From an uncultured virus (IMG/VR IMGVR_UViG_3300020463_002162) (Duplodnaviria; Heunggongvirae; Uroviricota; Caudoviricetes), in IMG/VR virus record IMGVR_UViG_3300020463_002162: DNA of 20,000 bases. The stretch is one strand, 5' to 3'. Positions 1,119 through 18,338 of the stretch are shown here, one piece after another. The position numbers and the translations under genes are program-made. Every line of letters starts with the position of its first letter. Position 1 is the first letter of the stretch. The notes below the pieces were generated by a model. It had not been told where the DNA came from. It worked only from the letters and a program-made list of their open reading frames with translations, and did no database searches.

Positions 1119-1502
1119 ATGTATTTAACAAATTTATCAAAACTAAACAATCAACTAGATGCTTTTGATGGTATCTTCGATTCATTCTTTAATTTCCCTA
1201 ACACTAGACCATCTACATGGACTACGATTAACTCTTTTGGAACTGACTATAGAGTAAATGATAATTCTCTAGAACTTTCTTTACCTGGTTTCACAAAGAA
1301 AGAGATTGATATTGCCGTAGATAATGGTATTCTAACTATTTCTTCAGATGTAAAAGAAGAAGGTTTTAGACAATCATTCAATAAATCATTTAGATTGCCT
1401 GCTACTATTGATACTGATTCTATTTCAGCTTCAATGAAAGATGGTATTCTAACTATTGATTTTAAAAGAACTGATAACGTTAAGAAAATTAACATCAAAT
1501 AA
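1119..1502 (+). CDS. small heat shock protein (Hsp20/alpha-crystallin family)
   Basis: LSLPGFTKKEIDIAVDNGILTIS, F.KSFRLP, ASMKDGILTI, C-terminal I-x-I (KINIK). Confidence 0.93.
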   Translation: MYLTNLSKLNNQLDAFDGIFDSFFNFPNTRPSTWTTINSFGTDYRVNDNSLELSLPGFTKKEIDIAVDNGILTISSDVKEEGFRQSFNKSFRLPATIDTDSISASMKDGILTIDFKRTDNVKKINIK

Positions 1503-1504
1503 TT

Positions 1505-1564
1505 ACAAAATAGTTGCCAAAAAGTTTTCCAGTGTCAGATTTTTTTATTATATTAGTACTGTAA
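1505..1564 (+). promoter_or_regulatory. repeated phage promoter-like element, copy 1
   Basis: ACAAAATAG TTGCCAAAAAG TTTTCC AG TGTCAGA N9 TATATTAGTACTGTAA; matches copies at 7556, 9106, 9813. Confidence 0.8.
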
Positions 1565-1586
1565 TTAAAAATCAAACTAATAAATT

Positions 1587-1721
1587 ATGTGGAATATACT
1601 ATATTTTGACTACGGTAAAGAAATTATTGACACTGCCGAAACCTTTAAAGAAGCCAAATACTTGCTAAAAGAATACAAGATGGCTTTCAAATCTAATAAC
1701 CTTAAAATATCAAGAGCCTAA
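1587..1721 (+). CDS. small hypothetical protein (44 aa), not in ORF track
   Basis: MWNILYFDYGKEIIDTAETFKEAKYLLKEYKMAFKSNNLKISRA*; directly downstream of promoter copy 1; TAATG overlap with next gene. Confidence 0.7.
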   Translation: MWNILYFDYGKEIIDTAETFKEAKYLLKEYKMAFKSNNLKISRA

Positions 1722-2017
1722 TGGAAGACAATTTTAACATCGACGACTATATTAACGATCCAGACTTCGAGCAGAAGATGGAGAACTATAAAGAAAAAAT
1801 GATTCATGAGGCTATTGAACACAACTATGAGAATATGTCCAAGAATGGTATCTCAGATTGGCATGTAAGACACATGAACAAAGATGAGATGACTCAGCTA
1901 AAAGAAACTCTCCAGTTTATGATGACACACTTCTTAGAATACGAAGAGTATGAAAAGTGTACTTTGATGAAATCTGAGCTGGAAAAGGTTAATCGGATAT
2001 TAGAGAAGGTGTCTTAA
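1721..2017 (+). CDS. acidic hypothetical protein with C-terminal UVR-like coiled-coil motif
   Basis: C-terminal FLEYEEYEKCTLMKSEL, similar to the tails of the ORFs at 4206 and 4755. Confidence 0.7.
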   Translation: MEDNFNIDDYINDPDFEQKMENYKEKMIHEAIEHNYENMSKNGISDWHVRHMNKDEMTQLKETLQFMMTHFLEYEEYEKCTLMKSELEKVNRILEKVS

Positions 2018-2026
2018 GATATATAA
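2018..2026 (+). promoter_or_regulatory. putative late promoter motif GATATATAA
   Basis: Same 9-mer at 2108 and 13740, variants at 4744, 15121, 18965 and 9780(-); all intergenic. Confidence 0.55.
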
Positions 2027-2104
2027 CTTAACGCACTACCATAACGGCGGTGCGGGCCCCCGAAATGAACCCGTAGGAAATCTAGTATTTCCGCGGGTTT
2101 TTTT
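2027..2104 (+). ncRNA. candidate ~75-nt structured small RNA ending in an intrinsic terminator
   Basis: GC-rich island; hairpin CGCAC(2032-36)/GTGCG(2050-54); second hairpin AACCCG..GGAAAT/ATTTCC..CGGGTT (2068-2099) plus T7; preceded by GATATATAA. Confidence 0.4.
2068..2104 (+). terminator. rho-independent terminator
   Basis: AACCCGTAGGAAAT-CTAGT-ATTTCCGCGGGTT followed by a T-run. Confidence 0.75.
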
Positions 2105-2107
2105 ATT

Positions 2108-2116
2108 GATATATAA
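2108..2116 (+). promoter_or_regulatory. putative late promoter motif GATATATAA
   Basis: Follows a terminator, 3 nt before ATG 2120; same arrangement at 13740. Confidence 0.65.
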
Positions 2117-2119
2117 TCT

Positions 2120-2674
2120 ATGAAATACGTATTAACATTGGAAAAGTACAAAGCATATAAAGACTTTGAGCGCATGCGTGGTAACTGGGGAAGTCCTGTA
2201 GACATGCGTGCTGATGTAGAATTCTGTTTAGGCAGATTACTACCTAAGGATAATCTGATTAAAAACATTGAAGATCAGTCTTCAGATAAAGGTATTAAAT
2301 TCTTTGTTCAATTAAAAGGCGGTGACCACCTCCACATGTACAAAGTATCTGACTGGCAAAGATCTCCAGAAGATGGTTGGGAATACTACTTCAATAAGAA
2401 GAAAATGTCCTACTATGATTTATACAAAATGCTAGAAGATGAGTATCAATCTAAGCTAGAACAATTCCTAAAGTATTTTAAGTCCTATGACTTCTATGCA
2501 CAATATATTGATGATGGTCGTCAGTGGAAAGCTGCTACTGCAAACAATGATAGATTAGTAGACAGATACAAAGATCTTTCAAAATCAGAGCAGAAAAAAG
2601 CTAAAAAAGAAATTCTAAAACATTTCAAGTCTAAGGAATTAAGACCCGATGTGGATAGAGTTTTCCCAGGATAA
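2120..2674 (+). CDS. hypothetical protein with MKY..LE N-terminal motif (possible internal virion protein)
   Basis: 184-aa ORF starting MKYVLTLEKY. Confidence 0.7.
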   Translation: MKYVLTLEKYKAYKDFERMRGNWGSPVDMRADVEFCLGRLLPKDNLIKNIEDQSSDKGIKFFVQLKGGDHLHMYKVSDWQRSPEDGWEYYFNKKKMSYYDLYKMLEDEYQSKLEQFLKYFKSYDFYAQYIDDGRQWKAATANNDRLVDRYKDLSKSEQKKAKKEILKHFKSKELRPDVDRVFPG

Positions 2675-2675
2675 T

Positions 2676-3014
2676 ATGAAGTATCTAAACACATTTGAGT
2701 CTTTTGTAAATGAAGGAAGACCTTTCTTTCAAGAAACACCTAATGAGTTTGCTTATTTAGATTTTAAGAAATGGGCTTACAAGAAAAGAGGTGATATTAA
2801 GAAGAGACTAAAAGATATTGATGATGGTTCATTCTTCTTTATAGAACTTAAGAAGGTTTGGATGGACTGGGCAAACAAGAACGCTAAGCAATGGAGTTAT
2901 GTTCATTCAACACCAGTTGCTGAGAAAGACTTTGGTAGAGCTCTAGCAGCTATGATGAAAGATGATAATTTAATTATCAAAAAAGCTGGTAATAAACTTA
3001 CAGATCTAAAGTAA
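2676..3014 (+). CDS. hypothetical protein with MKY..FE..NE N-terminal motif (start reassigned from 2649)
   Basis: ATG 2676 lies just after the upstream stop and gives MKYLNTFESFVNE, matching its neighbours. Confidence 0.7.
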   Translation: MKYLNTFESFVNEGRPFFQETPNEFAYLDFKKWAYKKRGDIKKRLKDIDDGSFFFIELKKVWMDWANKNAKQWSYVHSTPVAEKDFGRALAAMMKDDNLIIKKAGNKLTDLK

Positions 3015-3268
3015 TGAAATATCTACAATTATTTGAAGACTTTGCAAAAGATGAACCTGAATTAGAAGTAATTAGACAATTCAAAGGTTCTATTCAAGAT
3101 CTGGATGACTGGCTCAAATCAAAGGTGGGTGAAACAAACCCATACAAAGACACTATAATGGTTAACGGTCCCCATGTTGGACAGAAGGATAAATCAATTC
3201 CTTACCAAGATTTCCAAAATGGAGAGTCCGATTTAATAAAGAATAGACATGGACGAAAAGACAGCTAA
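3014..3268 (+). CDS. hypothetical protein with MKY..FE N-terminal motif
   Basis: MKYLQLFEDF; TAATG coupling to the upstream gene. Confidence 0.7.
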   Translation: MKYLQLFEDFAKDEPELEVIRQFKGSIQDLDDWLKSKVGETNPYKDTIMVNGPHVGQKDKSIPYQDFQNGESDLIKNRHGRKDS

Positions 3269-3419
3269 AGAAATAGCAAAACAACTTAAGAGAATTGCAG
3301 ATGCAATGGAAGCACAAGGTAAACGTGATATTCTTGGAGAGAAGAGAAGAGCTAAGTTAGAGTCTTTGCAAGTAATAGATATTCGTAAAAGAAACAATTC
3401 TAAATCTGATATAGAGTGA
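3249..3419 (+). CDS. small helical hypothetical protein (56 aa), not in ORF track
   Basis: MDEKTAKEIAKQLKRIADAMEAQGKRDILGEKRRAKLESLQVIDIRKRNNSKSDIE*; GTGA overlap with the dnaJ start; fills the gap. Confidence 0.7.
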   Translation: MDEKTAKEIAKQLKRIADAMEAQGKRDILGEKRRAKLESLQVIDIRKRNNSKSDIE

Positions 3420-4213
3420 GCCACTATGCAACTTTAGGTGTAGACAAAACAGCAACTCAGTCAGAAATCAAAAAAGCTTATAGAAAACTGTGTATAGTTC
3501 ACCATCCTGATAAAGGAGGTGATGAGAACAGATTTAAAGAAATTGCAGACGCTTATGCTGTAATTGGCGACGAACAGAAGCGCCAACAGTATGACGCTGT
3601 ACAAGATAATCCGTTTGCCAACTTTGGAAACATGGGAGGCATGGACGGTAACTTCGGTGATTTATTCAATCAATTCTTCGGTCAACAACGTCAACAAGCA
3701 CGTGGTAGTGATATTAGAGTTGATATGCATATCACATTTTATGAAGCATTTCATGGATGCACAAAGGTGTTTCAGATTAATGGTCAAGAACATACCATTG
3801 ATTTGAAGCGTGGTGTCAGATCTGGACAGAGGTTCAGACTAGCTGGCAAAGGTCAAGCACATCCTTTCAACACGCAACTTCCACCTGGAGATTTATTCGT
3901 AACAATACATGTACAACTTAATAGTGAGTATATACTAGAAGGAAACAACGTATGGGTAGAAGTTACGCTTCCATGGTTTGAAATTATGTCAGGTACAAAA
4001 GTAACAATCAACTCACTGGATGGACCGATTTCGATAACAGTACCTGAAGGAACTGCGCCCGGTAAGGTGTTAAGAGTAAGAGAAAAAGGATGGCCAGACT
4101 ATGATACGCAAATAAGAGGAAGTTTATTGTGTAAAATTAATCCTAGCTATCCTGAACTAAATGAGCAACAACTCGAATATATAAAGAAAGTATATCAAAA
4201 CAAAAATGGATAA
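3416..4213 (+). CDS. dnaJ: DnaJ-class co-chaperone (class B/CbpA-like, no zinc finger)
   Basis: J-domain (HYATLGV...EIKKAYRKL...HHPDKGGD...FKEIADAY), G/F-rich linker, DnaJ C-terminal domain (GQRFRLAGKG, GDLFV, LRVREKG). Confidence 0.93.
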   Translation: MSHYATLGVDKTATQSEIKKAYRKLCIVHHPDKGGDENRFKEIADAYAVIGDEQKRQQYDAVQDNPFANFGNMGGMDGNFGDLFNQFFGQQRQQARGSDIRVDMHITFYEAFHGCTKVFQINGQEHTIDLKRGVRSGQRFRLAGKGQAHPFNTQLPPGDLFVTIHVQLNSEYILEGNNVWVEVTLPWFEIMSGTKVTINSLDGPISITVPEGTAPGKVLRVREKGWPDYDTQIRGSLLCKINPSYPELNEQQLEYIKKVYQNKNG

Positions 4214-4484
4214 ATTCTTTAGAAAGAACCGTAATAGGTTATTTAATTCGAAATGGGACATAATTATTGAAGGCCTAATGGTTAACAATAAGCCTGCTTT
4301 TTTTGCTGCTCTTTACCAAGCCATGATGGAACATCCGACATACGTCATTCTATCAGATATGCCAGTTGAACGTAAAATACAAATTTTGAGTAATATGTTA
4401 CAGTATTATGAAGAGAAAGAAGATTACGAGAAATGTGCAAAATTAGTAAAAATGCAACAGCAAGTAAATTCAGATATATGTTAA
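4206..4484 (+). CDS. hypothetical protein with C-terminal UVR-like motif
   Basis: C-terminal YYEEKEDYEKCAKLVKM. Confidence 0.7.
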   Translation: MDKFFRKNRNRLFNSKWDIIIEGLMVNNKPAFFAALYQAMMEHPTYVILSDMPVERKIQILSNMLQYYEEKEDYEKCAKLVKMQQQVNSDIC

Positions 4485-4672
4485 TAGTAAAATTAAATAA
4501 GAAAACAAGTATAGAAAAGGCTCTTAAGCAGCTTAAGTCAAAAGTAATAAGGACTAAGCAAATGCGAAAGCTAAGAGATTTAAAACAATTCACAAAACCT
4601 TCAGAGAAGAAAAGGCTACAAATACAGAAGGCCAAATATATTCAGCAAATTAGAACGAAGGAACAGCAATAA
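4478..4672 (+). CDS. rpsU: 30S ribosomal protein bS21, Bacteroidota type (start reassigned from 4433)
   Basis: MLIVKLNKKTSIEKALKQLKSKV...LRDLKQFTKPSEKKRLQIQKAKYIQ; 64 aa; IEKALK and F.KPS..R signatures. Confidence 0.9.
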   Translation: MLIVKLNKKTSIEKALKQLKSKVIRTKQMRKLRDLKQFTKPSEKKRLQIQKAKYIQQIRTKEQQ

Positions 4673-4754
4673 AAAATATAGGATTAACTTAATATCCTAA
4701 TAATTTTCCATCTAGATATTAGCTATCTGGGATGAGAGCTCTAAATATATAATC

Positions 4755-5051
4755 ATGGTTGACCTAACTATAAAAAGACCAACAATTAAGATGAGTGGAT
4801 ATATCTCCAACACAGATAAAGATTCTCTTATGAGAGCAAGTTATTATCAGATAACTAGAAACTTTACTAAGACAGTAAATCGTTTTGTTGCTTTTAAAGA
4901 TGACGATAGATTGATTGAGATTCCACATGGTATTGGTCAACGATCAAAATTTATAGACTTAATGGTTAAATACTTTGAGTCGCTTGAAGAATATGAGAAG
5001 TGTAATAAGCTAATGAAGCTTAAAGATCTGGTCATAATGGCTGGTGACTAA
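4755..5051 (+). CDS. hypothetical protein with C-terminal UVR-like motif
   Basis: C-terminal YFESLEEYEKCNKLMKLKD; preceded by AATATATAA (4744-4752); alternative start at 4791. Confidence 0.7.
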   Translation: MVDLTIKRPTIKMSGYISNTDKDSLMRASYYQITRNFTKTVNRFVAFKDDDRLIEIPHGIGQRSKFIDLMVKYFESLEEYEKCNKLMKLKDLVIMAGD

Positions 5052-5064
5052 AAAAAATTAAACT

Positions 5065-5748
5065 ATGGCAAGAACCTCTAGAGCAGCATCAATTGGAGCT
5101 GGGTTGAAAAGAGTTCAACTAAGACCTAATCAAAGAAATTATGTCGATACAATAAACAAGAATGATATTACATTCTGTTACGGACCAGCTGGAACATCAA
5201 AAACATTTACAGCTTGCTTTACAGCGCTGCAGATGTTACAAGAAAAGAAGATTAAAGAAATAGTGTTGTGTAAACCAATCCAAGAAGCGGGTGAAAAACT
5301 TGGACATTTACCGGGAGACATTCATGATAAAACGGATCCCTACATGAAATCTTACAAATCTAATATAGAAAAGATAATTGGAGCTGAGCTAACTAAAACC
5401 TTATTTGACAAAAGAATAATTCGATTCGAACCACTAGCCTATATGCGAGGAGATACTTTTGACGATGCCTTAATGATTCTTGATGAAGCACAGAATGCAA
5501 CATACAAACAGTTGATGTTATTTGTGACAAGAATGGGTAAGTCAAGTAAGGTGGTAGTAACTGGAGACGTAAGTCAAGCTGATATTGCAGCTTCACAGGT
5601 AAGTCTACCAGGTTTCATAGAGTTATTAGAAGGTGTGAAAGGAATTGACACACATATATTTACAGAGTCAGATATAGTTAGAGCTAAAATACTACAAGAG
5701 GTTGTGGCTAGGTATGATAAATGGAAAATTCAAAACAACATCAGATAA
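5065..5748 (+). CDS. phoH: PhoH-family ATPase
   Basis: GPAGTSKT P-loop, EAGEKLGHLPGD, PLAYMRGDTF, ILDEAQN, TGDVSQAD. Confidence 0.95.
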   Translation: MARTSRAASIGAGLKRVQLRPNQRNYVDTINKNDITFCYGPAGTSKTFTACFTALQMLQEKKIKEIVLCKPIQEAGEKLGHLPGDIHDKTDPYMKSYKSNIEKIIGAELTKTLFDKRIIRFEPLAYMRGDTFDDALMILDEAQNATYKQLMLFVTRMGKSSKVVVTGDVSQADIAASQVSLPGFIELLEGVKGIDTHIFTESDIVRAKILQEVVARYDKWKIQNNIR

Positions 5749-8285: not shown

Positions 8286-8540
8286 ATGGACTTTGAACCT
8301 AAATGGACTTTTAAAGAAAACATGGACCACATCTTTGATGTAGTTAAAAAAGCTGCGGCAGTTATCAAATCTTGTAAGAACACTACACATTTAGTAGGTG
8401 CCGAAAATTATGTCAAGAATGTCAGGCGATACCTAAACTTCTTTGAAAAGTCTGCAAGACAACAAGAATTTTGTGACAAGCAATTAAATGAGTTTGAAAA
8501 AATGATTAGAATTAAAAATAAACAATATCTTGTCGATTAA
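8286..8540 (+). CDS. hypothetical protein
   Basis: 84-aa ORF tightly packed in the operon. Confidence 0.65.
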   Translation: MDFEPKWTFKENMDHIFDVVKKAAAVIKSCKNTTHLVGAENYVKNVRRYLNFFEKSARQQEFCDKQLNEFEKMIRIKNKQYLVD

Positions 8541-9114
8541 GAGATGGACACAGACCGATATAGAATTATCTTCTGAATTCTTAAAAGCTCCTCATTTTTG
8601 TAAACATCCCGGCGGGCAAGAAATCATGCATAAATGGGAAACTCCTATAATGGAGCTAGATGCAAAACACTTATGTAGAGGCGGAGGTAGTATTCTAAAT
8701 ATAGGATATGGTATGGGTATTATTGATGGTTTCATTAGAGACTATAAGCCTGACAAACATACTATTATTGAAGTACATCCACAGCTTGTAAGGAATGCTA
8801 AAGCTGCAGGCTATGAGAATGTATTGGAAGGAGATTGGATTGATATTGTCAAGAATATGACAGAACAATTTGATGCAATATATTTTGATACTTATTGTTT
8901 TGACAGAGATGATTGGGCTATTTTTACAAAGGACTATGCAGATAGACTTTTAAAACCAGGAGGTAGATTTAGCTATTTTAATCGTGATGCTGCAAAACAA
9001 CAAAAAGTATCAGACTTATGTGAGGCTAAAGGTTGGAAGCCACATGTGGAGACTATTCAGTTTTCCAGAAGCCAGTGGTATTATTCTATTGTTTGGCATA
9101 AATCTGCAAAATAA
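8530..9114 (+). CDS. class I SAM-dependent methyltransferase, Rmt2/guanidinoacetate methyltransferase-like
   Basis: IMHKWETPIM, ILNIGYGMGIID (motif I), HTIIEVHP, FDAIYFDTY, LLKPGGRFSYFN. Confidence 0.8.
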   Translation: MSIKRWTQTDIELSSEFLKAPHFCKHPGGQEIMHKWETPIMELDAKHLCRGGGSILNIGYGMGIIDGFIRDYKPDKHTIIEVHPQLVRNAKAAGYENVLEGDWIDIVKNMTEQFDAIYFDTYCFDRDDWAIFTKDYADRLLKPGGRFSYFNRDAAKQQKVSDLCEAKGWKPHVETIQFSRSQWYYSIVWHKSAK

Positions 9115-10433: not shown

Positions 10434-10952
10434 ATGGAAGCAATACAACAAATACAATCACTTCTGCAGGAAGCAGAACAGATAGCAAAAGAAGACTTAG
10501 GCTTAGACAATATATTCTACAACGAGAGGTTCGTAGAGATGTTTATGGCTAATCATTTAGGACACGAGTATGGTAACAATACTCAGGGTGGCGATGCCTT
10601 AGATGCCACTGAAACGCCTACAGAATATAAGGCAATTAATCTTAGAAATAAAACTAAAGGTACGTTCCAGTTCCATTGGTTATCTAAGAATAAAATCAAG
10701 AAATATGCTGAGACTAATAATATGTACTTTGCAATTAGAGATGGTGTAACTATTAAGAAGATCTATGAAGTTCCTACTGAAGTTATCATGCCAGTCTTAG
10801 AAGCTAAAGCTACAAATTCAAAATCTATTAATGGTCATGCAGGTTTCAATGAGAAGAAATTAGTAAATGAGTTTAACGCAAAGCTAGTCTATGATGCAGA
10901 GAAATTCAACTGTGCATATTCTGGCTTAACATCACCAGCAGCCTATGAGTAA
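10434..10952 (+). CDS. PD-(D/E)xK endonuclease, PvuII-like
   Basis: GLDNIF..., QGGDALD...EYKAIN, KY...FAI..G..I..IY: colinear with R.PvuII as recalled (GINDIF, EGNDAVD...ELKSIN, FAIYRGIAIEAIY). Confidence 0.7.
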   Translation: MEAIQQIQSLLQEAEQIAKEDLGLDNIFYNERFVEMFMANHLGHEYGNNTQGGDALDATETPTEYKAINLRNKTKGTFQFHWLSKNKIKKYAETNNMYFAIRDGVTIKKIYEVPTEVIMPVLEAKATNSKSINGHAGFNEKKLVNEFNAKLVYDAEKFNCAYSGLTSPAAYE

Positions 10953-11205
10953 AAGTAAAACACCAATATCATTGCTGATCGAAGCAATGCAAGAAGAACT
11001 AGAAAGTAGCCCGAAAGAAGTTTGGCCAGGTATGGAATATGCAATAGAGATTGCTAAGAGAATGTTACCTGAAGAAAAGAAAATCATGTGTGATTTTGCA
11101 AACAATTGGGCAGATGCTAGAGAACAAACAGATAGAATGTACAATGATATTCCAGGGTTTGAAGGTACTCTGGATGCATTAGATGACTTAACCGATTTTT
11201 CATGA
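10945..11205 (+). CDS. acidic hypothetical protein
   Basis: 86-aa ORF overlapping both neighbours. Confidence 0.65.
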   Translation: MSKSKTPISLLIEAMQEELESSPKEVWPGMEYAIEIAKRMLPEEKKIMCDFANNWADAREQTDRMYNDIPGFEGTLDALDDLTDFS

Positions 11206-11561
11206 ATAAAATCTTAGTCTTAGGTATTTCACCAGGTTTTGCTGGTAGTCCACAGAAATCTATGTCTATTCAAAGAGTAAAGAGATGGATGGCTGAATGT
11301 GGCTACGAGCAGACTGACTACGATTGGAGAAATCTAGTCGATGAAGCAGGTAAAAACCCTAAGATGGGTGAAGTAACAATTGGTGTTGATGAGGTCGCTA
11401 AATATGACAAAGTAATATGTCTTGGAAATAAACCTGAACAATGGTGTAAATCTGTAAAGATAGAACATTTAAAAGTTCCACATCCATCTGGCTTAAATAG
11501 ACAGTGGAACAATCCCGAAACAGAAACTATAACAATTAATAATATTGGTGAGTATTTATGA
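11202..11561 (+). CDS. minimal uracil-DNA glycosylase-like superfamily protein
   Basis: ILVLGISPG (motif A-like), KVICLG, VPHPSGLNR (motif B HPS). Confidence 0.65.
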   Translation: MNKILVLGISPGFAGSPQKSMSIQRVKRWMAECGYEQTDYDWRNLVDEAGKNPKMGEVTIGVDEVAKYDKVICLGNKPEQWCKSVKIEHLKVPHPSGLNRQWNNPETETITINNIGEYL

Positions 11562-12251: not shown

Positions 12252-13193
12252 ATGAATAAATCTAGCCTTATGACAAACTATGGATATTGTTGCATCAATA
12301 TGCAACTCAGAAAACAAAAACCATCTATCACTACAAATCGTAGTATGATTAAACGTACATTTATGGCTAAAGGTCCTGACTACGCTTCAGAACTTATTGT
12401 ACAAAACGTACGAGACCTACGTGAAATCATTAAATGGAATGAGGCTAACGGTATCAAACTTTATCGTATGTCTTCTGATATTATGCCGTGGATGTCAGAG
12501 TACAATATCTCAGATCTAAAAGACTTTAGAATTATTCGAACTATTCTAGAGGACTGTGGCGATCTGGCTAGGGAGTACGGACAGAGGATTACATTCCACC
12601 CTGGACCATTCGATGTCCTCGCATCACTAAATGAAAACGTTGTCACCAAATCTATTGCTGATCTCAACAAGCATGGTGAAATATTTGACCTTATGGGTCT
12701 ACCGCGTACTCCCTATGCTGCGATCAATATCCATGTCAATACTACACAAGGTGGTAAGGAAGAAGCTATGCAGAGATTCGTAGATGCATTCCACTTACTT
12801 GACCCTTCTGTTAAAAGCAGACTTGTAGTAGAAAATGACGACAAACAAAAACAATATGCTGTAGAAGATCTTTATCAAGGTATTCACAGCAAGATTGGTA
12901 TTCCTATTACATTCGACTACCATCACCACTGGTGTCACCCAGGTGAGTTGACTCAAGAAGAAGCACTTAAAATGGCTTCAACAACTTGGCCTAAGGACAT
13001 CAAGCAACTTTGCCACTACTCTTCGTGCAAGCAAATACACGAGGATGCTTCCGTAATGGCAAGGGCTCATGCTGATTATATCTATGAGCACATTAATACC
13101 TATGGTCTTAATTTAGACATTGAGTTAGAAGCTAAAGCCAAAGAATTGGCAGTTCAAAAATATGTGAAACAATTTGCATCACAGTTAGTATAA
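12252..13193 (+). CDS. uvsE: UV DNA damage repair endonuclease UvsE (UVDE)
   Basis: GYCCIN, LYRMSSD, RITFHPG.F.VL.S, RLVVENDDK, IPITFDYHHH, RAHADY, ELEAKAKELA. Confidence 0.95.
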   Translation: MNKSSLMTNYGYCCINMQLRKQKPSITTNRSMIKRTFMAKGPDYASELIVQNVRDLREIIKWNEANGIKLYRMSSDIMPWMSEYNISDLKDFRIIRTILEDCGDLAREYGQRITFHPGPFDVLASLNENVVTKSIADLNKHGEIFDLMGLPRTPYAAINIHVNTTQGGKEEAMQRFVDAFHLLDPSVKSRLVVENDDKQKQYAVEDLYQGIHSKIGIPITFDYHHHWCHPGELTQEEALKMASTTWPKDIKQLCHYSSCKQIHEDASVMARAHADYIYEHINTYGLNLDIELEAKAKELAVQKYVKQFASQLV

Positions 13194-16550: not shown

Positions 16551-18338
16551 ATGGGACAGATTCAAAAAACAGTAACAGTATTACCACAGGGTGACCAATA
16601 TCAGTGGGAAGATCTAAACGGTGCAGTAGGCAACTGGTTATCTCTAACTCAAAATGGTAGTACAGATACTTGGACATTTGCTACAACAGGTGTAAATAAT
16701 ACAGGTTCTGATAGAACAGCTACTTTTAGACTGTTACATTCTACTTTCACAGAATTCCCTGGAGATCCTGGTTTGAAAGATGAGTTTACAATTACTCAAT
16801 TGAGCTCTCAGCAATCTCTAGCAGCATTTACTTATGCTGATTGGACCGGCTCATTGACTGGTGTCGATGCAGCAGGTAATGTAAATATTGTTAATGGCAA
16901 CTCTTCTACAGTAACTTCAGTCCCTGCTAGTTTTGATGCAAACGATGATGATGGAACCAACCAGGTAAGTTTGATATTATACGTTACAGTTCCCGCTGGT
17001 TATTCTAATACAGGAGGCACAGTTGATAGTGGTACTCTCACAGTGACGCAACCTACTAGTTATGTTGCACCAAGTACAATAACAGGGTCGATGAATATAA
17101 ACTATGGTGGTAGTGGAACGGATGTATGTACAGGTGCAGGAACTTCTGTTACCGGTGTTGCAATAAACATAACTGGAATTCCTAATCCTAGTAATGCAGA
17201 ATGGCAACAAGCTGCACGTGTACAAGCTGCAGACCACTTGAATTCACTTAATGTTCCTGCTAACCAATTCTATAAAGTAACAGCTATATCTGACCATAAT
17301 AATGGTACAATCCCTACTTTAAATCAATTTGTTGAATATGAAGGTGGTGGAATAATAGGAGATCAAGAGCCATGTCCAAACCCACAATATACAGTTAACA
17401 TTACAGCAAACAGTACTATAGCTAACGCATCAATCTATAATGTTGCATCTGGAGGTGTACCTAACAATGTTATTACACAAGTAGGAGAGTCTGGTACTAC
17501 TATTACTGATGCATTCTATGTTGAAGCAAACTCTGGCTATAACATTAGTCCTAGCCAAGTTAGTATATCTTCATGGGGCGGTGGAGGCTCTAATACTTAT
17601 GTTAACCCTAACGTAAACGCAGCAGGTAGGGTTGTTGTTGGATGGAACGACACTCTAGATCCAAACAATCTTAATTTTGCTATAGGAATAGCGGGTAGTG
17701 TAAGTCAATTAACATATACAGTAGATGTTGTAGAAACAAATAGTTCTAGTACAATATGTAGTGAAACTGTAAGTAATAATCAATTCTCCTACCCACAAGG
17801 TGAAGGTGGAGTAAACTTCCAGAACTACTTCTTAAATAACTACGGGGTAACTGGTAGTACAGGCTCGATAAAAATAATTAGCTCTAACGAACCTAACTTC
17901 TCTTGGGCAGGTTGGGCAATTACAATGAATAGTTCAAACGAGCCTCTAAACGGAGGTTGGTTTAACTGTAACTCTGGTGGTGGATCCGCTTCAGTAGCAA
18001 TATCCGGATCAGAGTGGGTTTACACAGTGAGTGGACCGGAAGATTATCTAGCAACTCCTGCTAATATATTCGGTTCTGGTGGAAATGGAAACCCTTCATT
18101 CTCATGGCAACTGACTGGTATTAACGCTAATAAGTTCGCATTAACTAACCCGAGTTCACAAACATGTACCGTACAGTATATCGGGACTGGTGATTGTAGT
18201 GGAGGTGGACATTCGTGTCTTATCAGCGTTACAGCAACAGGTTTTGATGCAAACGGACAATCAATATCACCAGTATCAAATACAGACACAATAAACGGAT
18301 GTGATGACTCCAGTGAGGGTGGATCTTCCGGCGGATAA
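16551..18338 (+). CDS. beta-rich adhesin/virion fibre-like protein with N-terminal BACON-like domain
   Basis: G/S/T/N-rich; NWLSL...NNTGSDRTATF...FTITQ; Ig-like repeats with Cys pairs. Confidence 0.65.
   Translation: MGQIQKTVTVLPQGDQYQWEDLNGAVGNWLSLTQNGSTDTWTFATTGVNNTGSDRTATFRLLHSTFTEFPGDPGLKDEFTITQLSSQQSLAAFTYADWTGSLTGVDAAGNVNIVNGNSSTVTSVPASFDANDDDGTNQVSLILYVTVPAGYSNTGGTVDSGTLTVTQPTSYVAPSTITGSMNINYGGSGTDVCTGAGTSVTGVAINITGIPNPSNAEWQQAARVQAADHLNSLNVPANQFYKVTAISDHNNGTIPTLNQFVEYEGGGIIGDQEPCPNPQYTVNITANSTIANASIYNVASGGVPNNVITQVGESGTTITDAFYVEANSGYNISPSQVSISSWGGGGSNTYVNPNVNAAGRVVVGWNDTLDPNNLNFAIGIAGSVSQLTYTVDVVETNSSSTICSETVSNNQFSYPQGEGGVNFQNYFLNNYGVTGSTGSIKIISSNEPNFSWAGWAITMNSSNEPLNGGWFNCNSGGGSASVAISGSEWVYTVSGPEDYLATPANIFGSGGNGNPSFSWQLTGINANKFALTNPSSQTCTVQYIGTGDCSGGGHSCLISVTATGFDANGQSISPVSNTDTINGCDDSSEGGSSGG

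What the first reader, a model, noticed from the sequence alone, without database searches (positions are those of the whole stretch)
1119..5051. Putative phage proteostasis-hijack module: Hsp20, DnaJ and three UVR-tail proteins that may be ClpC adaptors
Seen: three unrelated-looking ~95-aa proteins (1721, 4206, 4755) share only a C-terminal motif (F/Y)-x-x-x-E-(E/D)-YEKC-x-x-(L/M), and they are interleaved with hsp20, dnaJ and rpsU. Established: the UVR (UvrB/UvrC) coiled coil has the consensus E.(F/Y)E.AA.LRD and mediates homotypic contacts, including the ClpC middle domain and McsA. Inference: variable N-terminal domains on a constant UVR tail look like a family of phage adaptors that dock on the host ClpC M-domain (or UvrB/C) and redirect or unlock protease activity, working alongside phage-encoded chaperones.
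Basis: partly seen in the sequence, partly recalled or inferred. Interest (0 to 1): 0.75.

Follow-up and report, generated by a model that had tools for sequence, protein, structure and literature searches.

The report
Phage UVR-like hairpin proteins, ClpC candidates
Three small genes of a large uncultured marine phage end in a cysteine-bearing copy of a docking hairpin that bacteria and plants use on the ClpC protease motor, so they may let the phage steer its host's protein degradation, although binding has only weak computational support and they do not form one unit with the neighbouring chaperone genes.

Summary
The three ORFs (A 1721, B 4206, C 4755) and their shared E-E/D-Y-E-K-C tail are real. 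The tail is a divergent UVR hairpin: no window protein reaches Pfam UVR, but reciprocal profiles, helix-turn-helix models and bridging relatives place it in register. Its closest cellular match is the terminal UVR of Flavobacteriaceae nuclease-UVR proteins, not the ClpC M-domain; it lacks the R-D pair. The family is large: 1,063 clusters. Relatives carry their own N-domain-less ClpC, ClpP and a fourth copy, D, yet one relative lacks that block and keeps A, B, C. 'Chaperone module' is not supported: linkage is clade synteny, hsp20 is optional (32 of 65), and B and C follow their own late-type promoter motifs. A with a host-type M-domain scored 0.51 against 0.02, weak support. Best reading: M-domain-capping regulators, most likely of host ClpC (0.45). 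This scan noted the same family before on at least nine other genomes.

The parts
1119..1502 (+). hsp20 (optional neighbour)
   Evidence: PF00011 E 3e-14; present in 32 of 65 related loci that span exo..C
1721..2017 (+). paralogue A, 98 aa, acidic N-part + helix 1 + UVR-like hairpin (hairpin about 1886-1990)
   Evidence: 65 of 65 loci; most like the host nuclease-UVR tail (17.3 bits mean; hhalign 75.9%); weak complex support
2063..2106 (+). terminator-like hairpin followed by a U run, downstream of A
   Evidence: fold -17.2 kcal/mol; not picked up by the strict terminator scan; one RNA-library contig of a relative stops at 2104 (weak hint)
2109..2116 (+). ATATATAA late-type promoter motif before ORF 2120 (another copy at 2019)
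   Evidence: motif class tested
3416..4213 (+). dnaJ, J domain + C-terminal domain, no zinc finger
   Evidence: PF00226 + PF01556; 65 of 65 loci; no Hsp70 in 5 of 5 related records, one complete
4177..4184 (+). ATATATAA motif inside the 3' end of dnaJ: putative promoter of B-rpsU
   Evidence: motif in the last 120 nt of dnaJ or at the B start in 46 of 62 distinct loci, at two alternative positions, 3 of 62 further upstream in dnaJ
4206..4484 (+). paralogue B, 92 aa, all-helical, hairpin about 4362-4466; overlaps dnaJ stop and rpsU start
   Evidence: H54-70, 3-residue turn, H74-89; 61 of 65 loci; absent from the complete relative G001
4475..4672 (+). rpsU (bS21), Bacteroidota-like
   Evidence: PF01165; only PDB matches 7jil and 9i5v
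4745..4752 (+). ATATATAA motif: putative promoter of C-phoH
   Evidence: in the rpsU-C intergenic region in 51 of 62 distinct loci
4791..5051 (+). paralogue C, probably 86 aa from ATG 4791 (ORF open from 4755); helix, beta-hairpin, UVR-like hairpin (about 4929-5033); by far the most conserved copy
   Evidence: 73% mean column identity; H19-36, E45-49, E52-55, H62-76, H80-95; least M-domain-like tail
5065..5748 (+). phoH, always directly after C
   Evidence: PF02562; 81 of 81 loci

Best explanation
A, B and C are paralogous members of a large, so far virus-only family of small proteins whose C-terminal helical hairpin is a divergent UVR motif (Cys in place of the first Ala, Lys or other residues in place of R-D, extra aromatic residues that pack a third helix). 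The hairpin most resembles the terminal UVR of the host's own nuclease-UVR protein, the bacterial counterpart of plant proteins trapped on ClpC. Most likely mechanism: the acidic E-E-Y-E tip pairs head-to-head with the basic tip of the host (Bacteroidota) ClpC middle domain, caps it, and so interferes with the M-M contacts that hold ClpC at rest or with host UVR-tailed partners; the different N-terminal parts set when, or on which substrate, each copy acts. B and C act late in infection. The same family supplies a fourth copy, D, to the phage's own N-domain-less ClpC. Shown: homology, fold, gene context, promoter-like motifs. Weakly predicted: A binding an M-domain. Inferred: target choice, activation, substrate delivery.
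For: Tail profile built from phage proteins alone ranks the M-domain tip first, in register, in 58 of 75 bacterial ClpC (top 3 in 69) and the reverse profile puts tails in 18 of the top 25 of 2,569 phage ORFs. Mean score: nuclease-UVR tails 15.9 bits (n 20, rank 1 in 20 of 20), Flavobacteriaceae ClpC 5.8 (n 2), UvrC 6.4 (n 1), UvrB -3.6 (n 3), phage ClpC -0.7 (n 19); hhalign 77.7%, E 1.9e-5, 24 columns; domain content BFN + UVR confirmed in 3 of 3. Bridging relatives hit Pfam UVR (3 of 22; 3 of 150, one over the cut-off; Atlas clusters with 17% and 13% UVR). Hairpin with a 3-residue turn in both models. Net charge at the tip: A -3.1, B -2.0, C -3.2, host M-domain +0.95 (n 21), phage M-domain -1.8. 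Complex A + Flavobacteriaceae M-domain 0.51, best of 3 controls 0.02, runs agree in 100% of contacts, partner pLDDT at least 81: weak support; the mark was reached by 116 of 157 solved and 2 of 215 mismatched pairs, at 0.60 or under by 18 of the solved and both mismatches. A, B, C persist in G013, which lacks the phage clpC-thyA-D-clpP block, so their target need not be phage-encoded. D sits with the phage ClpC in 71 of 71 loci that show ClpC, tying the family to a ClpC at least once. Plant DUF151-UVR proteins are enriched 16- to 47-fold in a CLPC1 trap (PMC8889267, passages); M-domain tips repress ClpC (PMC5699869, passages).
Against: No window protein hits Pfam UVR at E<=1. R and D, which matter for M-M contact (R443, D444 in PMC5699869), are mostly replaced. 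Profile-profile scores against ClpC M-domains are negligible (2.7% and 1.6%). C, the most conserved copy, ranks the M-domain first in only 5 of 75 and its invariant residues lie largely outside the tip. The complex pass is weak and may reflect memory of solved UVR dimers; it used a stand-in host and gave no contacts. In 36 loci of other phage groups a tail gene has no Clp or chaperone neighbour. A UVR motif does not guarantee ClpC binding: Arabidopsis UVR1 was not trapped. Being trapped can also mean substrate.
Confidence: 0.45

Rival explanations
1. A, B, C and D are plug-in adaptors for the phage's own N-domain-less ClpC-ClpP: they replace the missing N-domain by docking on its M-domain.
For: Relatives carry a 656-682 aa ClpC with Pfam UVR and no Clp_N; clpC-thyA-D-clpP in 70 of 74 loci anchored on an independent marker; both blocks on one record in 10 records; D stays with clpC where clpP is missing (L296); N-less S. 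aureus ClpC stays repressed through its M-domain and cannot bind MecA (PMC5699869, passages).
Against: G013 keeps A, B, C without clpC, D or clpP at the syntenic site or elsewhere in 170 kb (70% complete). Phage M-domain tips are acidic like the tails and score worst among ClpC sets (rank 1 in 3 of 19). 0 of 13 records of other groups with a tail gene show ClpC, but these are 18-52% complete. A later paper finds the N-domain stabilises the resting state (PMC12583610, abstract), so an N-less ClpC may need no unlocking.
Confidence: 0.15
2. The hairpin docks on another UVR protein: the host nuclease-UVR protein, UvrC/UvrB, or the paralogues on each other, acting as a decoy against a host nuclease or repair complex rather than on the protease.
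For: Highest similarity is to the nuclease-UVR tail; 31 of 31 Flavobacteriaceae-family genomes hold several UVR proteins; the phage brings its own UV endonuclease UvdE.
Against: Nuclease-UVR and phage tips are both acidic, which disfavours pairing; UvrB scores lowest; D's position inside the clpC-clpP block points to Clp.
Confidence: 0.2
3. The hairpin has become the structural core of a three-helix bundle, and each paralogue serves a different partner through other surfaces (C with PhoH, B with bS21 or the ribosome, D with ClpP); UVR likeness is ancestry only.
For: Invariant Cys and added aromatics suggest core packing; C precedes phoH in 81 of 81 loci and a tail gene precedes phoH in one unrelated locus (L147); B overlaps rpsU and shares a promoter-like motif with it; C's conserved residues cluster in helix 1, the beta-hairpin and the C-terminus.
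Against: The exposed E-x-Y-E tip is the one feature kept across 1,063 clusters with varied N-parts and lengths, as expected of a shared docking site; weak complex support for A with an M-domain.
Confidence: 0.2

Closest known systems
Bifunctional-nuclease (DUF151/PF02577) + UVR proteins: about 210 aa in Flavobacteriaceae; Arabidopsis UVR2/3/4 (PMC8889267, passages)
   Same: C-terminal UVR hairpin with an acidic E-(D/E)-Y-E-K tip; best match to the phage tail; plant members are enriched on trapped CLPC1
   Different: Phage proteins lack the nuclease domain, have Cys for Ala and no R-D, and carry short unrelated N-parts; ClpC binding of the bacterial protein is not in the papers found
UVR motif, Pfam PF02151 (UvrB C-terminus, UvrC, ClpC M-domain)
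   Same: Helix, 3-residue turn, helix; E-[FY]-E at the tip in register
   Different: Below the curated cut-off in all three window proteins; A-A-x-x-R-D replaced by C-x-x-L-K-K; extra packing helix
SPO1 Gp53, phage adaptor-like protein of B. subtilis ClpCP (PMC6873191, abstract and passages)
   Same: A phage protein proposed to redirect host ClpCP
   Different: Gp53 is 25 kDa, binds surfaces overlapping MecA's including the N-domain, and is experimentally shown; these are 10 kDa UVR-like paralogues with no experimental data; no sequence comparison with Gp53 was made
Chloroplast CLPF, EXECUTER1/2 (bioRxiv 10.64898/2026.08.05.743032, passages)
   Same: UVR-bearing proteins that contact ClpC, CLPF also through the middle domain
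   Different: Large multidomain eukaryotic proteins; not phage

Membership tests
UVR motif (PF02151) | Score over the Pfam cut-off (21.5 bits) | tested here: not met
   0 of 3 window proteins at E<=1; relatives: 21.3, 18.3, 13.7 bits in 3 of 22; 1 of 150 over the cut-off
UVR motif (PF02151) | Helical hairpin with a short turn and E-[FY]-E at the tip | tested here: met
   Models of C and B; register and reciprocal profile ranks; A was not folded alone
UVR motif (PF02151) | A-A-x-x-R-D on the second helix | tested here: not met
   Cys invariant at the first Ala; Lys, Met or Leu at the R position and mostly Lys at the D position
UVR motif (PF02151) | Structural match to a solved UVR domain | tested here: inconclusive
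   Only generic helical bundles listed, Z up to 8.6
ClpC adaptor / M-domain regulator | Binds ClpC (here the M-domain) | tested here: inconclusive
   Weak support for A with a Flavobacteriaceae M-domain, 0.51 vs 0.02; B and C not tried
ClpC adaptor / M-domain regulator | Activates ClpC or delivers substrates to ClpCP | not testable with these tools
   Needs ATPase and degradation assays
ClpC adaptor / M-domain regulator | Genetic linkage or co-occurrence with clpC/clpP | tested here: inconclusive
   Met for D; A, B, C lie 5-45 kb away and persist in G013 without the block, which leaves host ClpC open
Nuclease-UVR (DUF151) proteins | BFN domain PF02577 | tested here: not met
   No BFN hit in A, B or C; they are under 100 aa
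Co-regulated phage chaperone module | Specific linkage and shared transcription unit with hsp20 and dnaJ | tested here: not met
   hsp20 32 of 65; dnaJ 65 of 65 but phoH 65 and RNase HII 64 of 65 too; terminator-like hairpin after A; separate motifs before B and C

The most novel reading that the evidence does not exclude
Large Bacteroidota phages have expanded a host-derived UVR docking tail into a family of over a thousand sequence clusters of plug-in ClpC regulators: each couples a different N-terminal recognition part to the same acidic hairpin, caps the ClpC middle domain (host ClpC for A, B, C; the phage's own headless ClpC for D) and switches proteolysis on in timed waves, an adaptor route that bypasses the N-domain used by MecA, McsB and Gp53.
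Probability: 0.25. Interest if true: 0.8.

Novelty: new variant of a known kind. Interest (0 to 1): 0.5.

Why it matters
The phage ClpC modulator found in my searches (SPO1 Gp53) and the classic adaptors engage the N-domain. A phage family that works through the M-domain tip would be a second route to control ClpCP, would give a direct test of the idea that UVR-tailed proteins are general ClpC regulators, and would give a function to a very large unannotated viral family and a lead for the unstudied nuclease-UVR protein of Flavobacteriaceae. The proteins are 10 kDa and the test is a simple pull-down and ATPase assay. If they do not bind ClpC, the finding is an unnamed paralogous phage family in a conserved gene block.

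Tried and rejected
No whole genome is held for the window, so its own clpC could not be checked; the closest record (G005, 61 kb) does not reach the expected site (for relatives). Pfam and PHROGs on single proteins: nothing for A, B, C; Pfam on 93 alignment members lists no consistent family, UVR not among the rows shown (25 of 49, 25 of 33, 6 of 6 families). PDB sequence searches with B's profile and the tail profile: no meaningful hit. Fold searches against PDB: generic helical bundles, no UVR chain listed; viral library: only uncharacterised phage proteins, best E 0.01. tblastn of C against annotated phage records: no match. Sigma-70 promoter scan: 22 found vs 27 expected, uninformative. 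The idea that the three share their whole N-terminal domain was tested and gave at most 2.1%. The idea that A, B, C depend on the phage's own ClpCP was my first reading and was weakened by G013. Three huge phage records with a ClpC-like gene: two have 2 tail genes each (one strong, three weak), one has none: uninformative. RNA-library contigs (4 runs, 2 studies, share of words 0.07-0.12): no contig on most of dnaJ in run X4, which proves nothing; a contig in X2 bridges the dnaJ end and B. Pfam neighbours of tail genes in other phage groups were only read by eye and by phmmer with 11 queries. Paper searches found no description of a phage UVR-tail family; subscription papers, including the review on Uvr motifs cited, were not searchable, and no supplements were read.
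Full report
Observation. The three ORFs exist at the stated places and share an E-(E/D)-Y-E-K-C core, three times in 7,012 residues against 1.3e-4 expected. hsp20, dnaJ (J and C-terminal domains) and rpsU are confirmed by Pfam; phoH, an acetyltransferase, RNase HII and uvdE follow. The window looks like part of a large T4-like phage: relatives are IMG/VR contigs up to 256 kb, one of them complete, with PHROG matches to major head, portal and tail tube proteins. The phage bS21 matches only PDB 7jil and 9i5v; that 7jil is the Flavobacterium johnsoniae ribosome is recalled, not printed by the tool. A ClpC 81% identical to that of a related phage lies on a contig binned in a Flavobacteriaceae MAG. 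A Bacteroidota host is therefore likely, not shown.

What the three proteins are. From 80 loci found with C I collected orthologues of A, B and C and aligned representatives: 37 A, 34 B, 22 C (chosen from 71, 73 and 81 hits by identity, with hand removal of truncated A entries). Profile comparison shows they are paralogues (96.7-97.9%). With the last 35 or so residues removed the N-parts score 0.1-2.1%, with only a Tyr-bearing helix in register, so the constant part is the tail. Models of C and B show that helix followed, after a beta-hairpin (C) or short helices (B), by helix, three-residue turn, helix (pLDDT 81 and 77). Fold searches gave generic bundles only. A 35-column tail profile finds 1,063 clusters at 50% identity; the 150 listed are 39-289 aa, nearly all under 175 aa with the match near the C-terminus. 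Atlas neighbours of B are viral hypothetical clusters in 30 of 30. So this is a large unnamed viral family, not a feature of this locus.

Is the tail UVR? By Pfam cut-off, no: 0 of 3 window proteins. By homology, yes, as a divergent variant. A profile built only from phage tails ranks the M-domain tip first among roughly 800 windows, in register, in 58 of 75 bacterial ClpC proteins (75 of the 79 bacterial loci were usable; mostly Bacillota and Spirochaetota), but in only 3 of 19 phage ClpC; A alone gives 59 of 75, B 50, D 52, C 5. The reverse profile places tails in 18 of the top 25 of 2,569 phage ORFs. Relatives bridge to Pfam UVR (3 of 22; 3 of 150, one over the cut-off). The tip E-[YF]-E is kept; the first Ala is an invariant Cys; R-D is mostly replaced by Lys. 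Profile-profile scores against M-domains are negligible (2.7%, 1.6%). In the Flavobacteriaceae family all 31 genomes searched hold UVR proteins of four size classes. Among windows recovered from 26 of 33 such loci, the tail profile scores the roughly 210-aa proteins highest (15.9 bits, n 20) ahead of UvrC (6.4, n 1), ClpC (5.8, n 2) and UvrB (-3.6, n 3); hhalign gives 77.7%, E 1.9e-5. These proteins are bifunctional nuclease + UVR (3 of 3), the architecture of Arabidopsis UVR2/3/4, which were enriched 16- to 47-fold on trapped CLPC1 while UVR1 was not (PMC8889267, passages). The phage tail thus resembles a partner-type terminal UVR more than the M-domain itself. Its tip is acidic (A -3.1, B -2.0, C -3.2) like the nuclease tail (-2.2), whereas the Flavobacteriaceae ClpC tip is basic (+0.95, n 21) and the phage ClpC tip acidic (-1.8).

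Four of five related records hold one true UVR, inside a phage-encoded ClpC of 656-682 aa with no Clp_N domain (19 full-length copies). It is followed by thyA, a fourth paralogue D, and clpP in 20 of 20 D-orthologue loci. Anchored on an independent downstream gene, 70 of 74 loci show all four genes; one has clpC beyond the edge, one has clpC-thyA-D without clpP, one lacks the whole block, one is too short; many of these loci are near-duplicates. Record G013 (170 kb, 70% complete) also lacks the block at the syntenic site and shows no clpC or clpP anywhere, yet keeps A, B and C. So D follows the phage ClpC, while A, B and C do not need it, unless it hides in the missing 30%. The complete relative G001 has A, C and D but no B. 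In 36 loci from other phage groups a tail gene has no Clp, DnaJ or Hsp20 neighbour, and 0 of 13 such fragmentary records show ClpC.

Not one chaperone module. In 65 loci spanning the exonuclease to C, A is in 65, dnaJ 65, B 61, rpsU 63, phoH 65, RNase HII 64 and hsp20 32: ordinary clade synteny, with hsp20 optional. No Hsp70 was found in 5 related records. An ATATATA(A/C) motif is strand-biased (437 vs 74 in these loci; 49 vs 4 in G001) and in G001 precedes the major head, head protease, portal, tail tube, baseplate, tail fibre and endolysin genes, also SSB, RNR and dCMP deaminase (37 downstream ORFs scanned): a late-type promoter by inference. It lies between rpsU and C in 51 of 62 distinct loci and in the end of dnaJ in 46 of 62, at two alternative positions, but before hsp20 in 0 of 27, before A in 7 of 51 and before D in 0 of 15. 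A terminator-like hairpin follows A. In one RNA library, contigs of a close relative cover 1536-2104 and 4186-4638, matching these borders, but this is one study, contigs cannot prove ends, and a contig in another run bridges dnaJ and B. Late expression of phage bS21 is reported for other phage clades, and Hsp20 and Clp proteases are frequent near phage bS21 (PMC9723584, title and passages).

Binding test. A (residues 14-98, 37-row alignment) with a Flavobacteriaceae ClpC M-domain (33-row alignment of 21 bacterial and 12 phage sequences) scored 0.51 against 0.02 for the best of three controls; runs agreed in 100% of contacts, partner pLDDT at least 81. The tool rates this weak: the mark was reached by 116 of 157 solved and 2 of 215 mismatched pairs, at 0.60 or under by 18 solved pairs and both mismatches; no contacts were given, and UVR dimers have been solved, so memory may contribute.

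Mechanism. In S. aureus, M-domain tips (F436, R443, D444) pair head-to-head to keep ClpC at rest, and breaking them activates it without adaptor, also in N-less ClpC (PMC5699869, passages); a later abstract adds that the N-domain stabilises this state (PMC12583610). An acidic UVR-like hairpin that pairs with the basic host tip would cap it and either unlock ClpC, carry a substrate on its N-part, or displace host UVR-tailed partners. I give 0.45 to this, 0.15 to service of the phage's own ClpC, 0.2 to another UVR partner and 0.2 to a repurposed bundle with neighbour-specific roles (most plausible for C next to phoH). Homology, fold and context are shown; binding is weakly predicted for A only; activation and substrate delivery are inferred.

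Novelty. Six paper searches found phage Gp53 (PMC6873191, abstract and passages) and plant UVR proteins (bioRxiv 10.64898/2026.08.05.743032, passages) but no phage UVR-tail family. The scan's own notes hold the same family on at least nine other genomes; they are not independent support, but their claim that only the clpP-adjacent copy is tied to the phage protease led me to the G013 test, which agrees. Verdict: a real, new viral variant of the UVR motif with a testable ClpC hypothesis; the chaperone-module framing is not supported. Interest 0.5.

Noticed in passing
window 2019, 2109, 4177, 4745, 13741, 18966 (+): ATATATAA motif, six copies on + and none on -, a late-type promoter candidate for this phage group; one copy is kept inside the dnaJ coding end, always with the codons that spell it (19 of 19 distinct loci with that peptide).
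   Followed up: yes
   Followed up: no
L102:7665-11539 and 70 other loci: Phage-encoded ClpC that naturally lacks the N-domain, in a fixed block clpC-thyA-D-clpP; lost as a block in G013 and L277, clpP alone missing in L296; ClpC split by an apparent frameshift in G002 (L101:7843-9856).
   Followed up: yes
L316:976-1596 and L323-L347: Flavobacteriaceae genomes carry a conserved 210-aa bifunctional nuclease with a terminal acidic UVR tail, a candidate ClpC partner for which I found no paper.
   Followed up: partly
window 10434-10952: PvuII-like restriction endonuclease domain (PF09225, E 3e-8) in a phage, with a possible methyltransferase-fold ORF at 8530-9114.
   Followed up: no
window 11202-11561 and 12252-13193: Uracil-DNA glycosylase superfamily protein and UvdE UV endonuclease: the phage carries its own repair enzymes.
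   Followed up: no
L046, L048, L049, L050, L059: A subgroup lacks B, so dnaJ is followed directly by rpsU; L083 and L093 show no rpsU hit.
   Followed up: partly
P0067, P0148, P0126: The same tail sits at the end of longer proteins of 173-256 aa with no Pfam match, showing that it can be appended to larger domains.
   Followed up: no
window 16551-18338: 595-aa Gly/Ser/Thr/Asn-rich ORF with no Pfam match, probably a virion surface protein.
   Followed up: no
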